Source of the DNA: a virus
Direction: 5' to 3' (one strand)
Virus genome (UHGV): UHGV-0174141
DNA length: 50,880 nt
Made by a program: the position numbers. Each line of letters begins with the position of its first letter. Position 1 is the first letter of the stretch. This document shows, in pieces, positions 21,001-24,000 of the stretch.

Positions 21001-24000
21001 CTGGCAATCACTTAACCGGAAGTATTCTGAACTTCAGCAGGAGTATTACCGGTTACGGCGCCCATTTAGCGTGTCGGTCACGGTGCCATATACCGACGTC
21101 TGGACACATAAGCCGGTTCAGTTTTATCCAGGTAAGCACCCATGCGAAAAACCTGCCGATATGCTTCAGCAGATCATTACTGCAAGCAGCCGGCCAGGGG
21201 ATGTCGTAGCTGATTTCTTTGCTGGTTCTGGTTCCACACTAAAGCAAGCTGCTCTGCTCGGGCGGAGTGGAATCGGTGTTGAACTGGAAACCGAGCGGTT
21301 TGAACAGACGGTCAGTGAAATACGCAATTTGCTTGAGCACCTACCACCACAACCAAATCCCTTGCCTTAGAGCTAAACCGGGCGTCAGCCAACGGATAAA
21401 CGTATCCGGAAAATTGAGATCGCAGGAACGACCAACAAACGGTAATCCGTATGGAGAATAACCCGTTGAGGAAGAGGCCTGGCCGGAACCGTAACCGGCA
21501 CTTATATGGCTGCGGGGCCAGCGTCTGAAGCGAATCACGATCACGATGCGAAAACTACATGTCCCAGCTGCGCGCAAAGTGACTTAAGGCAGGGCCACAA
21601 TTTGAATCTGCGACAACTTAGGTTGGTCGCTCCGTATCAGTAAGCGGATCCACCTGGCTCGCATTCGCGGGCCTTTTTCGTATCTGCGCCACGCTCGGCG
21701 TTATTTAACCACAGAGCCTTTCAGGGGTGAGCCATAGGGAATAGTCAGTGTGACTGTCTCTGTGGGCTGATCATTCCTGAGCGCTGGCTCACCCGCTAAA
21801 AGGAAAGTCACTATGTTTGGTATTTTTAAAAAGAAAGCCCGTAAAGCCGTTGTTGAAGTGAAAAAAATGGAAAACCGCGATGCCGTAGAAGCCACCGTCT
21901 GGGGAGCGTACTCGATTGCATACGCCGATGGTACCTGCGATGCAAAAGAGATTGCAGTGCTGGAGAAGACTATTTCGGCCCTCCCGGCATTCGCGCCATT
22001 TGCTGGTGAAATTGCCCAGATGAGTTCGAATATTCGCGCCCGCTATGAAGCATCACCACGTTCAGCCAACGCTCAGGCGTTGCGCGAACTGGCTGACGTT
22101 GCCGGGACGGATGACGCTGTCGATGTTCTTTGCCTGTGTCTTGATGTAGCTGATAACGACGGCATCGGGGAAGAAGAAGAGAAACAGCTGAAGAAAATTG
22201 CCCAGGCTCTGCAACTTCCATTGGACCAGTACCTGTGATCGGTAAACTTCGCTGGGCCGCAGCTGGGGTGCTTTTGTTTCTGGTGGTTGCTATCGACTTC
22301 ACCAGCAAAATGATGTCAATCCTGGCTGATGGCGTGCTGGTAGCCGGGGTAATCGCTTTGCTCTGGCCCCATATTAAACCCAGTGATTAGCACTGTGCAA
22401 AAGGCATCGTAATGGTGCCTTTGACAGAGTGTCAGTTATTGACGCCGCCTATGACTACATCCTAAATTATGCGTGTGGTGAATCCCCCTATGCGGAGGGG
22501 CATTGCCAGTCTGATATGTTTTTTTGCGCATTGCGAGTCGTCTGTGGACTGGCGGCGACTTACCGGGAGGCACCCGGCACCACACCTAATAAAAAATGAT
22601 GATAGCTGTAAGGCCCACTTCGGTGGGCTTTTTCTTTGGGCAAAAAAAAAGCCCGCATGGTTTCATGCAGGCAAGGCAGTTACATTTAGATTTTGTCCCG
22701 GTATATGTTTTTTTGTCCGGAAGTCGAAAGATACTGTCTCGAATACATTTTGTAAATAACGGATTCAAATCACAAGGCCATGCATTTGCATGGCTTTTTT
22801 ATTTGTGCCACCAGAGCATCATTCACTCTGTGCTTTGTCGTTAATCCATCTGGCGGCCATCCTAAAGGACTATCTGCTGAGTTCTTTTTTCAGAGGTTGC
22901 ATTTTCTTCAGTACCTCATCTGAATTAGTGACTGAGAAACCCGTCGGGAAAAATAGCATTCCATCGGATGGATGTTCATCGTGCCAGTGCTTCGTGGTGG
23001 CCATCGTATGAGCGTCGAGATAACTGGTGTAAGCATCAAGGAGAGCGTTTTTCCTGCGCCTCGGGGCGTAAGGTAGCAACTGGTTGAAATCAGCATCGCT
23101 GATAAGCCTGAATGGATAAGAGCCTCCTTCAATAGCCTCAATTTCGCTTAGCAACTTTCCCCGCAGTGGTGCGGAATGCTTCCTGAACTCTGCCTTACGT
23201 GACGAATGGTTACTGATTAGTGACGGAATAAAGAGCCCTAGCAGTGTCAGTATCACTCCGATTACTGAAATAATTTCCATGAGATTTCCCTATGCCTGAT
23301 TTTATTTATTCAGTATTACCCGTGGTGGGATTCGGTTTTTCTTGTTTTGGTCTTGGATACATCCTTGGCTTCGTACGCGGACGAGACTGAACAAGAAGAA
23401 TAAATCCGTCTGAGAGGGTGGTGAACCCTGATATTTTTACAGTGATTTTTGGTGGCTGTCACCTGGCGGCCATCCTATTTTCCCCTCGTTCTGAGAGGAT
23501 CCACAGCAATAGAGGGGGCTAAATGTCCGATCCTGTTTCTGCCACAACGATAGCAGCTGGTGGACTGTTCGGCGCCAGCCTATTCGGCCTGGCAACTGGT
23601 ATTGATTACGGCGTGGTATTTGGCGCGTTTGCTGGTGCGGTGTTCTATGTCGCAACGGCGGTGAATATTAGCCGCATAAAGCTGGTGGGCTATTTCATCA
23701 CTTCATTCATATTCGGTGTGATTGGTGCTCCTCTGCTGGGGTCGTACTTCTCAAAGTGGACTGGTTACAACGACAGGCCGCTTGATGCACTCGGAGCGGT
23801 AATCGTGGCAGCCATAGCTATAAAGCTGCTGACTTTCGTAAACAGTCAGGACCTGGGTAGCCTGTTTGGGATTCTCTCTCGCTTACGTGGAGGAGGGACA
23901 AGCAATGGTAACAAGTGATCCGAGCGCAATCATTAATGCGGTGATATGCGCTGTAATTGTTGTTGTGCTGATGTTCTACCGGCGTGATGGGTCAAGACAC

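What the first reader, a model, noticed from the sequence alone, without database searches (positions are those of the whole stretch)
22870..23280. Reverse-oriented membrane-anchored gene embedded in the late region
A 136-aa protein with a single N-terminal TM anchor is transcribed against the late operon, so it is probably expressed in the lysogen. That is typical for lysogenic-conversion or exclusion genes. No family recognised.
Basis: inference. Interest (0 to 1): 0.45.

Follow-up and report, generated by a model that had tools for sequence, protein, structure and literature searches.

The report
Prophage membrane-anchored accessory gene cassette
The reverse-oriented gene is real: it encodes a membrane-anchored protein of an unstudied, prophage-only family that probably works in the dormant prophage (perhaps blocking other phages), and it is paired with an overlooked 32-residue membrane peptide.

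Summary
ORF 22870-23280 (-) is a real gene under purifying selection (dN/dS about 0.1). It encodes a 136-aa protein with one N-terminal membrane helix and a confidently modelled four-helix domain, predicted to face the cytoplasm.

It lies between the Q antiterminator / STnc100 terminator region and the holin genes, antisense to them. Its orthologs hold that slot and orientation in at least seven prophage backgrounds with differing Q, holin and endolysin families.

It is half of a 613-bp cassette. A conserved 32-aa membrane peptide gene (23292-23390, +) starts 11 nt from its start codon on the other strand. Terminators flank the cassette, an 18-nt direct repeat brackets it, and GC content dips across it.

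No curated library matches the protein: Pfam, NCBIfam, PADLOC, PHROGs and PDB all failed. Profile comparison links it (HHalign 99%) to a larger uncharacterised prophage family. About half of that family's members sit beside a CI-type repressor on the same strand, the position of lambda rexAB.

This supports, without proving, expression in the lysogen. An exclusion or abortive-infection role is the best guess. It is a new member of a known kind (a moron) and a good candidate for a phage-challenge test.

The parts
22870..23280 (-). 136-aa gene: bitopic membrane protein with a TM helix at residues 3-21 and a four-helix domain predicted to be cytoplasmic. Conserved motifs are EFR, SAP, EAIEGGSYP, HWHDxxPSDG and FFP.
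   Evidence: ORF; 21 homolog clusters; alignments A1 and A2; dN/dS about 0.1; AF2 mean pLDDT 81.6, with most 10-residue blocks from 31 to 100 at 89-97; hydropathy and flanking charges.
23281..23291 (.). 11-nt spacer between the two divergent start codons. Each gene's promoter and leader must therefore overlap the other gene.
   Evidence: Sequence; the gap is 11-12 nt in all orthologous cassettes.
23292..23390 (+). 32-aa small membrane peptide gene (MPDFIYSVLPVVGFGFSCFGLGYILGFVRGRD), in the same orientation as the late operon. Too short to appear in the >=40-aa ORF listing.
   Evidence: Conserved in orthologous cassettes. Differences by codon position are 212/78/406 and pN/pS is 0.00-0.39 (median about 0.2). 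It was called as a 32-aa gene in L001. 28 IMG/VR loci carry it. No Pfam, NCBIfam or PHROG match.
23451..23474 (+). Terminator-like hairpin on the late strand, downstream of the small ORF and upstream of the holin leader. Its T-tract is degenerate in the window.
   Evidence: Orthologs have GGCYGCC-loop-GGYGGCC followed by TTTTTT at the aligned place. Related phages without the cassette have a terminator at the same place before the TTTCCCCTC holin leader.
23397..23425 (-). Candidate promoter of the 136-aa gene: TTCACC (23425-23420), 17-nt spacer, TATTCT (23402-23397). The predicted start near 23390 would make the roughly 110-nt leader antisense to the whole small ORF.
   Evidence: The same -35/-10 pair occurs at the same distance (113-116 nt before the ATG) in 10 of the 11 loci scanned (the window plus 9 of 10 orthologs), within a conserved block. 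This is a consensus match only, not mapped.
23433..23462 (-). Alternative candidate promoter: GTGACA, 18-nt spacer, TG-extended AAAAAT.
   Evidence: A weaker 3+4 match sits at the same distance only in L003.
22847..22864 (+). Left copy of the 18-nt direct repeat CATCTGGCGGCCATCCTA, 5 nt beyond the stop codon of the 136-aa gene.
   Evidence: the 15-nt core occurs exactly twice in the window, and 0 of 100 shuffles reached two matches.
23460..23477 (+). Right copy of the direct repeat (CACCTGGCGGCCATCCTA). It forms the 3' arm of the terminator-like hairpin. Homology to holin-bearing phages resumes at 23478.
22651..22672 (-). Intrinsic terminator on the - strand (9-bp stem followed by a run of Ts). 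Likely 3' end of the 136-aa gene's transcript.
22774..22797 (+). Hairpin with a T-tract on the + strand that also scores on the - strand (22794-22777). It is the second late-strand terminator ahead of the cassette.
   Evidence: It is shared at 98-99.5% identity with four Klebsiella phages that lack the cassette; their homology to the window ends at 22803.
22444..22641 (+). STnc100-family prophage sRNA ending in a terminator at 22610-22631, just upstream of the cassette on the late strand.
   Evidence: Rfam RF02076, 99 bits against a gathering score of 47, E 2.8e-21; terminator; described as a prophage-encoded sRNA in doi 10.64898/2026.05.13.724894.

Best explanation
The ORF is a genuine accessory ('moron') gene of a Klebsiella lambdoid prophage. 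It encodes a 136-aa inner-membrane protein with a two-residue N-terminus outside, one TM helix, and a four-helix bundle of about 110 residues in the cytoplasm. With a divergent 32-aa membrane peptide gene it forms a self-contained 613-bp cassette, inserted between the late-leader terminators and the holin genes. Shown: the gene is under purifying selection; the antisense Q-to-holin position is conserved across mosaic phage backgrounds; the cassette has defined boundaries and terminators on both strands; and the protein is homologous to a larger prophage family that sits next to CI repressor genes. Inferred: in the lysogen the gene is transcribed from its own promoter, while unmodified late-strand transcription stops at the upstream terminators. 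The protein then guards the inner membrane against other phages, either by blocking genome entry (as HK97 gp15 and P22 SieA do) or by an abortive membrane response. After induction, Q-modified polymerase reads through the cassette, silences the gene by convergent transcription and antisense RNA, and expresses the small peptide with the lysis genes.
For: Real gene: 21 homolog clusters; dN/dS about 0.1; confident fold, pLDDT 81.6. Moron anatomy: absent from close relatives on both sides, with homology ending at 22803 and resuming at 23478; an 18-nt direct repeat brackets 613 bp; GC is 0.42-0.48 inside against 0.51-0.57 outside; terminators lie on both strands. Conserved slot and orientation: between Q and the holin, antisense, in E. 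coli, Kosakonia, Mixta, Leclercia and metagenomic prophages carrying PF03589 or PF06530 Q proteins, holin families 8/3_7, 2_1, 2_4 and 3_1, and GH19 or GH24 lysins. Lysogen-type positions in the superfamily: HHalign probability 99%, E 2.8e-18 to the RDKRKEFN branch (reciprocal hit). That branch lies directly downstream of CI in Klebsiella and Serratia, upstream of CI in phiP27, and in a P22-like Arc/Mnt region in Pectobacterium. Of 34 distinct same-strand upstream neighbours, 22 carry HTH_3 and 19 Peptidase_S24; of 30 same-strand downstream neighbours, 14 are HTH_3 plus S24. Topology: 0-1 K/R before the TM and 3-7 after it, across 19 proteins of both branches sampled. A promoter-like TTCACC-N17-TATTCT is conserved in position. 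Precedent: morons carry their own promoter and terminator and are expressed from prophages, and HK97 gp15 is a small inner-membrane exclusion protein (PMC3594210). P22 SieA is an inner-membrane injection blocker whose conserved motif is predicted to be cytoplasmic (PMC10883804).
Confidence: 0.45

Rival explanations
1. It is a lysogenic-conversion gene unrelated to phage defence. The membrane-tethered cytoplasmic bundle would modulate a host inner-membrane process (a transporter, stress or envelope signalling, a protease such as FtsH) and so benefit the lysogen.
For: The anatomy and the lysogen-type positions are the same as for the best explanation. Morons have diverse host-benefit roles (PMC3594210). 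A conserved His/Asp-rich loop (H91, H98, W99, H100, D101) could bind a metal or a partner. The family is absent from PADLOC.
Against: The superfamily was found almost only in prophages and viral contigs, with no chromosomal housekeeping homologs. Genes directly beside CI in lambdoid phages are most often exclusion or abortive functions such as rexAB (general knowledge).
Confidence: 0.2
2. It is a regulator of the phage's own cycle. The 136-aa protein and the 32-aa peptide would form a membrane-located switch that tunes lysis timing or induction, like an antiholin, rather than acting on other phages.
For: The cassette always adjoins the lysis cassette. The small peptide lies on the late strand next to lysis genes even where the large gene is missing (L083 and L084). 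The face-to-face arrangement forces mutually exclusive expression. The peptide's TM segment is glycine-rich, GxGxxxxGxGxxxG (sequence).
Against: The neighbouring holin and endolysin families differ among loci (PF16931/PF05449, PF04971, PF16082, PF05106; GH19 or GH24), which argues against a specific partner. Most related phages lyse without the cassette. The distant branch lies next to CI, not next to lysis genes. No holin or antiholin family matches: LrgA scores 11.6 bits against a cut-off of 136.
Confidence: 0.15
3. It is an addiction or toxin-antitoxin-like pair. The 32-aa hydrophobic peptide would be a type-I-like membrane toxin, held in check by the antisense 5' leader of the 136-aa gene's mRNA (or the reverse arrangement).
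For: The peptide is small and hydrophobic and necessarily overlaps an antisense transcript. It has its own downstream terminator.
Against: Each gene occurs intact where the other is broken. The small ORF carries a stop at codon 23 in L027/L042 (this large-protein variant was seen on 14 contigs) and a frameshift in L003, while the large gene is intact. The large gene is lost or truncated in L066 and L081-L084 while the peptide is intact. The 136-aa protein is itself under strong purifying selection, so it is more than an RNA carrier.
Confidence: 0.08
4. The protein does not matter. Only convergent transcription matters, acting as an insulator that stops leaky late transcription from reaching the holin in the lysogen.
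For: The gene is antisense and sits directly between the late-leader terminators and the holin.
Against: dN/dS of about 0.1, invariant motifs and a confident fold show selection on the protein. The distant branch is co-oriented with CI and antisense to nothing.
Confidence: 0.03

Closest known systems
Moron elements of lambdoid phages (HK97 gene 15; lambda bor and lom)
   Same: It is an extra transcription unit set inside a late operon. It is absent from close relatives, has a GC dip and its own terminators, and encodes an envelope protein. The reverse-oriented Q-to-holin slot also holds other cargo: mEp390 gp47, a 157-aa gene in Klebsiella phage ST974-OXA48phi18.2, and a 34-aa gene in E. coli L37.
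   Different: It carries two divergent genes whose start codons are 11 nt apart. Their transcripts must overlap, and an 18-nt direct repeat brackets the pair. Its protein family is unrelated to any characterised moron product.
HK97 gp15 (YebO family) superinfection exclusion protein
   Same: A small inner-membrane protein with an N-terminal TM helix, encoded by a moron and expressed from the prophage (PMC3594210).
   Different: No sequence relationship: no Pfam family, YebO included, matched at E <= 0.1. This protein is larger, has a structured four-helix domain, and sits in a different genomic slot.
P22 SieA
   Same: An inner-membrane, prophage-expressed protein whose conserved motif is predicted to be cytoplasmic. 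A distant-branch relative (P0044) lies in the Arc/Mnt region of a P22-like prophage, where P22 keeps sieA next to mnt.
   Different: SieA has three TM helices and the motif FxRYPxEAxxFNK. This protein has one TM helix, lacks that motif, and shows no detectable homology.
Lambda rexA/rexB (genes co-transcribed with cI)
   Same: The distant branch of the superfamily occupies the position directly downstream of the CI gene on the same strand.
   Different: It is a single small bitopic protein, not a two-protein system with a 4-TM RexB. There is no sequence similarity, and the window's own copy is not in the immunity region.
Csx28 (Cas13b accessory membrane pore, PDB 8gi1)
   Different: The helical-bundle similarity is generic: Foldseek gives E 3.6 and sequence identity is 8%. 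There is no CRISPR context, and oligomerisation was not tested. This is a lead only.
phiP27 hypothetical protein (UniProt Q8W646; AJ298298 7107-7775) with phrog_34525 and phrog_13469
   Same: These are true homologs. Foldseek against BFVD gives E 6.7e-4, probability 1.0, TM-score 0.65. HHalign to this branch gives 99%. They share the TM helix, the [RK]-x-EF-[RN] juxtamembrane motif and the helical domain.
   Different: The shared sequence signal covers only the first ~90 residues. They lack the HWHDxxPSDG loop, sit next to CI rather than in the Q-to-holin slot, and have no 32-aa partner. All are annotated as hypothetical or of unknown function.

Membership tests
Moron (independent accessory transcription unit in a phage operon) | Present in this phage but absent from closely related phages at the same place | tested here: met
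   The left flank matches four Klebsiella phages at 98-99.5% up to 22803. The right flank matches holin-bearing phages from 23478. None of 50,697 phage records encodes the protein.
Moron (independent accessory transcription unit in a phage operon) | Own terminator and own promoter | tested here: inconclusive
   Terminator-like sites lie on the - strand at 22672-22651 and on the + strand at 22774-22797 and 23451-23474; 8 were found against 1.6 expected. The promoter is only a consensus match, although its position is conserved in 10 of the 11 loci scanned.
Moron (independent accessory transcription unit in a phage operon) | Base composition differs from the surrounding genes | tested here: met
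   GC is 0.42-0.48 over 22550-23450 against 0.51-0.57 on either side. The difference is modest.
Moron (independent accessory transcription unit in a phage operon) | Expressed from the repressed prophage | not testable with these tools
   This needs transcript mapping in a lysogen. The only support is indirect, from CI-adjacent paralogs.
HK97 gp15 / YebO | Sequence match to the YebO family | tested here: not met
   The Pfam scan at E <= 0.1 returned no family.
P22 SieA | Three TM helices and the motif FxRYPxEAxxFNK (PMC10883804) | tested here: not met
   There is one hydrophobic segment only, and the motif is absent from the sequence.
SieB, lambda RexB, T4 Imm/Sp and other curated exclusion or defence families | Profile match in Pfam, PADLOC or NCBIfam | tested here: not met
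   Pfam and PADLOC gave 0 families and NCBIfam nothing above noise. The distant branch also has no significant PADLOC hit.
Holin / antiholin | Match to a holin or antiholin family; co-orientation with the lysis genes | tested here: not met
   There is no holin family match, and LrgA scores 11.6 bits against a cut-off of 136. The gene is antisense to the lysis genes, and the neighbouring holin families vary.
Uncharacterised prophage superfamily (RDKRKEFN branch; phrog_34525, phrog_13469; phiP27 Q8W646) | N-terminal TM helix, juxtamembrane [RK]xEF[RN] motif, A-x-P, G-x-[YF]-P, and a helical domain of 120-145 aa in total | tested here: met
   HHalign probability 99%, E 2.8e-18 over 91 columns. 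The A3 profile hits the window ORF at E 8e-17. The profile search recovered the branch at E 1e-7 to 8e-4. Structure matches Q8W646. Direct hmmscan of the window protein against PHROGs found nothing significant, so the link exists only at profile or structure level.
Type I toxin-antitoxin | Small hydrophobic toxin whose loss of control is deleterious, so the partners are retained together | tested here: not met
   Either gene is found intact beside a disrupted or missing partner. Toxicity itself could not be tested.

The most novel reading that the evidence does not exclude
The 136-aa protein and the 32-aa peptide form a phase-switching pair encoded face to face. In the lysogen the large protein would act as a new kind of inner-membrane anti-phage effector: a membrane-tethered four-helix bundle that oligomerises or gates the membrane on infection. 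On induction, Q-driven read-through would both silence it by antisense transcription and produce the peptide. The peptide would bind the large protein's TM helix and neutralise it, so the prophage's own lytic cycle and lysis escape the block. That would be built-in self-immunity. The CI-adjacent branch would be the same effector without the antidote.
Probability: 0.12. Interest if true: 0.7.

Novelty: new member of a known kind. Interest (0 to 1): 0.4.

Why it matters
Prophage accessory genes in lysogen-expressed slots are a proven source of new anti-phage and host-modifying functions. This work defines an unannotated, prophage-restricted protein superfamily: more than 130 sequence clusters with no Pfam family, and a PHROG function of 'unknown' at best. 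Its members repeatedly occupy three such slots: beside CI, in the P22-type immI region, and antisense between Q and the holin. That gives a concrete shortlist for phage-challenge experiments in Klebsiella, where prophage-mediated resistance bears on phage therapy. The back-to-back pairing with a conserved 32-aa membrane peptide is also a compact natural example of overlapping antisense transcription units. It could be used to study mutually exclusive lysogenic and lytic expression.

Tried and rejected
Sequence libraries gave nothing. Pfam, NCBIfam, PADLOC and PHROGs returned no significant hit for the window protein. A PDB sequence profile search gave E >= 0.46.

Fold searches were uninformative.
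- Foldseek against PDB gave E >= 0.93.
- BFVD gave a single meaningful hit, the phiP27 homolog.
- The afdb50 library was not available.

Database searches for the gene elsewhere mostly failed.
- tblastn against 50,697 phage records found no match.
- The E. coli version of the cassette was absent from 5,426 complete E. coli genomes.
- A literature search for the accession Q8W646 found nothing.

I considered and rejected four readings:
- a chance ORF, refuted by dN/dS;
- a holin or antiholin, given no family match and variable neighbouring holins;
- a strict toxin-antitoxin pair, since each partner is found intact without the other;
- a clean 'empty site', because E. coli L37 carries one copy of the repeat-containing element upstream of a different holin but diverges right after GGCGGCC, so it is only a partial match.

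No homolog of the small peptide lies near the distant-branch genes, and the window holds no second copy of the family. I ran no further search on the 32-aa peptide.
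Full report
**1. The observation**

The ORF is there as described: 22870..23280 on the - strand, ATG start, 136 aa. 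It lies between the Q antiterminator gene and the lysis cassette. Q is at 18891-19739 (PF03589, E 3.9e-45). The lysis cassette comprises holin PF16931 at 23523-23918, holin PF05449 at 23866-24186 and a GH19 endolysin at 24186-24815. All of these are on the + strand, so the ORF is antisense to the late genes.

- Residues 3-21 form the only strongly hydrophobic stretch, with mean Kyte-Doolittle 2.53 against 0.44 for the next-best window.
- No Pfam, PADLOC or NCBIfam family matches, and PHROGs gives only noise.

**2. It is a real gene**

- A search of 5.8 billion proteins found 21 clusters of 53-99% identity. Almost all are 136-143 aa long and all come from Enterobacterales.
- Conserved (invariant or nearly so) motifs are EFR, SAP, EAIEGGSYP, HWHDxxPSDG and FFP.
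- Pairwise dN/dS among nine orthologs is 0.06-0.34, mostly about 0.1, with synonymous sites close to saturation.
- A profile search of 1.84 billion cluster representatives found only 25 proteins at E <= 0.001, so the family is small.
- The window protein is 100% identical to one encoded on Klebsiella michiganensis DSM 25444 contig NZ_PRDB01000013.1 and on several IMG/VR contigs.

**3. Structure and topology**

AlphaFold2, run on the 15-sequence alignment, gave mean pLDDT 81.6, with most 10-residue blocks from 31 to 100 at 89-97. The model has a helix over residues 2-51 (the TM helix running on into the soluble domain), helices at 62-71, 74-99 and 120-135, and a poorly defined loop at 100-117 that carries HWHDEHPSDG. 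This is a membrane-tethered four-helix bundle.

In the 19 proteins of both branches sampled, the flank before the TM helix holds 0-1 K/R and the flank after it 3-7. By the positive-inside rule the domain faces the cytoplasm. This is an inference and was not tested.

Fold searches found no informative relative:
- Foldseek against PDB gave E >= 0.93.
- A PDB sequence profile search found nothing.
- BFVD gave one significant match, Q8W646: E 6.7e-4, probability 1.0, TM-score 0.65.

**4. Conserved position and orientation**

Every ortholog whose contig reaches both flanks lies between a Q gene and the holin, on the opposite strand. This holds in E. coli, Kosakonia, Mixta, Leclercia and metagenomic prophages.

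The neighbours themselves vary:
- Q is PF03589 or PF06530.
- The holins belong to families 8/3_7, 2_1, 2_4 or 3_1.
- The lysins are GH19 or GH24.

The gene therefore keeps this slot across mosaic backgrounds and does not track any one lysis system. Other phages carry unrelated reverse-oriented genes in the same slot: mEp390 gp47, a 157-aa gene in Klebsiella phage ST974-OXA48phi18.2, and a 34-aa gene in E. coli L37. The slot is a general landing place for morons.

**5. Cassette anatomy**

To the left, the window matches four Klebsiella phages at 98-99.5% identity only up to 22803. To the right, homology to phages with the same holins (Kp4866-6, phage 1 LV-2017, mEp390) starts at 23478.

An 18-nt direct repeat, CA[TC]CTGGCGGCCATCCTA, sits at 22847-22864 and 23460-23477, 613 bp apart. 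Its 15-nt core occurs exactly twice in the window, and 0 of 100 shuffles reached two matches. GC falls to 0.42-0.48 inside against 0.51-0.57 outside.

On the late strand, upstream of the cassette, there are:
- an STnc100-family sRNA at 22444-22641 (99 bits) ending in a terminator;
- a second hairpin terminator at 22774-22797.

On the - strand, a strong terminator at 22672-22651 lies about 200 nt past the gene's stop codon.

The right repeat copy forms the 3' arm of a terminator-like hairpin (23451-23474). Related phages have a terminator at the same place, just before the holin leader.

**6. An overlooked partner gene**

An alignment of the upstream regions of 14 loci (the window plus 13 orthologs) showed about 190 conserved nucleotides. 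Read on the late strand, they contain a 32-codon ORF, 23292..23390: MPDFIYSVLPVVGFGFSCFGLGYILGFVRGRD. Its ATG is 11 nt from the ATG of the 136-aa gene.

- Differences by codon position are 212/78/406 and pN/pS is 0.00-0.39 (median about 0.2), so it is translated.
- Gene callers found it in one E. coli contig.
- It matches no Pfam, NCBIfam or PHROG family.
- A scan of IMG/VR found 28 loci, most of them paired with the 136-aa gene.

The pairing is not obligatory:
- The peptide ORF is broken beside an intact large gene in L027/L042 and in L003.
- The large gene is truncated or missing beside an intact peptide in L066 and L081-L084.
- In Mixta an IS21 element separates the two genes.

This argues against a strict toxin-antitoxin dependence.

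With only 11 nt between the start codons, each gene's promoter must lie inside the other gene. A promoter-like TTCACC-N17-TATTCT (23425-23397, - strand) recurs at the same distance in 10 of the 11 loci scanned (the window plus 9 of 10 orthologs). It would start transcription at the peptide's stop codon, so the leader would be antisense to the whole peptide ORF. A -10-like [GA]ATAAT or TAAAAT lies 17 nt before the peptide's ATG in 9 of the 11 loci scanned (not flagged in the window itself). These are consensus matches only.

**7. The wider family and what it says about expression**

The profile search also recovered proteins of 120-145 aa with the same layout and an RDKRKEFN motif after the TM helix.

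- HHalign between the two alignments gives probability 99%, E 2.8e-18 over 91 columns. The reverse HMM finds the window ORF at E 8e-17.
- This branch has at least 113 clusters. All are labelled 'hypothetical' or unnamed, none has a Pfam domain, and nearly all come from Enterobacterales.
- Two PHROGs (34525 and 13469) cover parts of it, both of unknown function. PADLOC gives no significant hit for it.
- One member is the phiP27 protein at AJ298298 7107-7775, 223 aa, the same length as Q8W646 and presumably that entry.

Its genomic positions are telling:
- directly downstream of the CI gene on the same strand in Klebsiella and Serratia prophages;
- directly upstream of CI in phiP27;
- in the Arc/Mnt/Ant region of a P22-like Pectobacterium prophage, opposite to the tail genes.

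In 80 IMG/VR loci (65 non-redundant configurations), 22 of 34 distinct same-strand upstream neighbours carry HTH_3 and 19 carry Peptidase_S24. Of 30 distinct same-strand downstream neighbours, 14 are HTH_3 plus S24. About half of this branch therefore abuts a CI-type repressor. That is the position of lambda rexAB and of other prophage-expressed genes (general knowledge; see also PMC10883804 on P22 functions expressed from the prophage).

**8. Interpretation**

Shown:
- a selected protein-coding gene;
- a two-gene cassette with defined ends and terminators;
- a conserved antisense slot;
- homology to a family that sits next to CI.

Inferred:
- the gene is transcribed in the lysogen from its own promoter, insulated from unmodified late-strand transcription by the upstream terminators;
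- Q-modified read-through after induction silences it and expresses the peptide.

The most likely function is protection of the lysogen at the inner membrane, by superinfection exclusion or abortive infection. The argument is by analogy with HK97 gp15 and P22 SieA (PMC3594210, PMC10883804). SieA's conserved motif is also predicted to be cytoplasmic, so a cytoplasmic domain does not exclude this role. The analogy is functional only. Membership of every named family was tested and failed.

Rivals are a conversion function unrelated to phages, a regulator of the phage's own lysis or induction, a toxin-antitoxin-like pair, and a purely transcriptional insulator. The last is contradicted by the selection on the protein.

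**9. Verdict**

The gene is a new member of a known kind, a moron, from an uncharacterised prophage superfamily. The added findings are its 32-aa partner and the cassette architecture. Interest is moderate. The function is unproven, but the family is a well-defined, testable candidate for a new prophage-encoded membrane defence.

Noticed in passing
window 23292-23390 (+): A conserved 32-aa membrane peptide gene diverges from the 136-aa gene, with start codons 11 nt apart. It shows a coding-type substitution pattern and matches no known family.
   Followed up: yes
window 22847-22864 and 23460-23477: An 18-nt direct repeat (17 of 18 identical) brackets the 613-bp cassette, with weaker similarity extending about 20 nt further left. 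It may mark the recombination joint that inserted the cassette. E. coli L37 (L059 3822-3869) carries one related copy upstream of a different holin.
   Followed up: partly
window 22444-22641 (+): A strong Rfam match to the prophage sRNA STnc100 (99 bits) ends in a terminator. By position it could be a short terminated late-leader transcript like lambda 6S RNA. However, Q lies 2.7 kb upstream, with a methylase, TerB and DUF3927 genes in between.
   Followed up: partly
window 25757-26050 (+): A 97-aa ORF just after the lysis cassette matches the Acb2/Tad1 hairpin domain (PF24729, E 3.3e-17). It is a likely cyclic-nucleotide sponge acting against CBASS or Thoeris.
   Followed up: no
window 25334-25618 (-): A second reverse-oriented ORF (94 aa, no family) lies in a GC dip (0.42-0.43) right after the spanin region, the position of lambda bor. 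It is another candidate moron.
   Followed up: no
window 21813-22390 (+); L001/L002 8473-9053: A TerB-domain gene (141 aa) overlapping a DUF3927 gene (51 aa) lies just upstream of the cassette. The same pair sits next to the ortholog in an E. coli prophage, so it may travel with the cassette.
   Followed up: no
L047 6001-6672 (phiP27, AJ298298 7107-7775): The 223-aa annotation of the phiP27 homolog is probably too long at its N-terminus. The Yersinia homolog P0104 (149 aa) starts at the equivalent of Met82, which would place the TM helix near the N-terminus as in the rest of the family.
   Followed up: partly
L004 6098-7911 (Mixta mediterraneensis): An IS21-family element (IstA/IstB) is inserted directly upstream of the ortholog. 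It separates the gene from the peptide ORF and from its presumed promoter.
   Followed up: partly
L009 1484-2302 (mEp390 gp47); L006 2268-2741: Unrelated reverse-oriented genes of 272 aa and 157 aa occupy the same Q-to-holin slot in other phages. The slot is a general hotspot for antisense cargo.
   Followed up: partly
L083 3001-3096; L084 3001-3096: In some viral contigs the 32-aa peptide gene lies downstream of the endolysin or spanin genes rather than upstream of the holin. It is still on the late strand, and the large partner is absent or decayed.
   Followed up: partly
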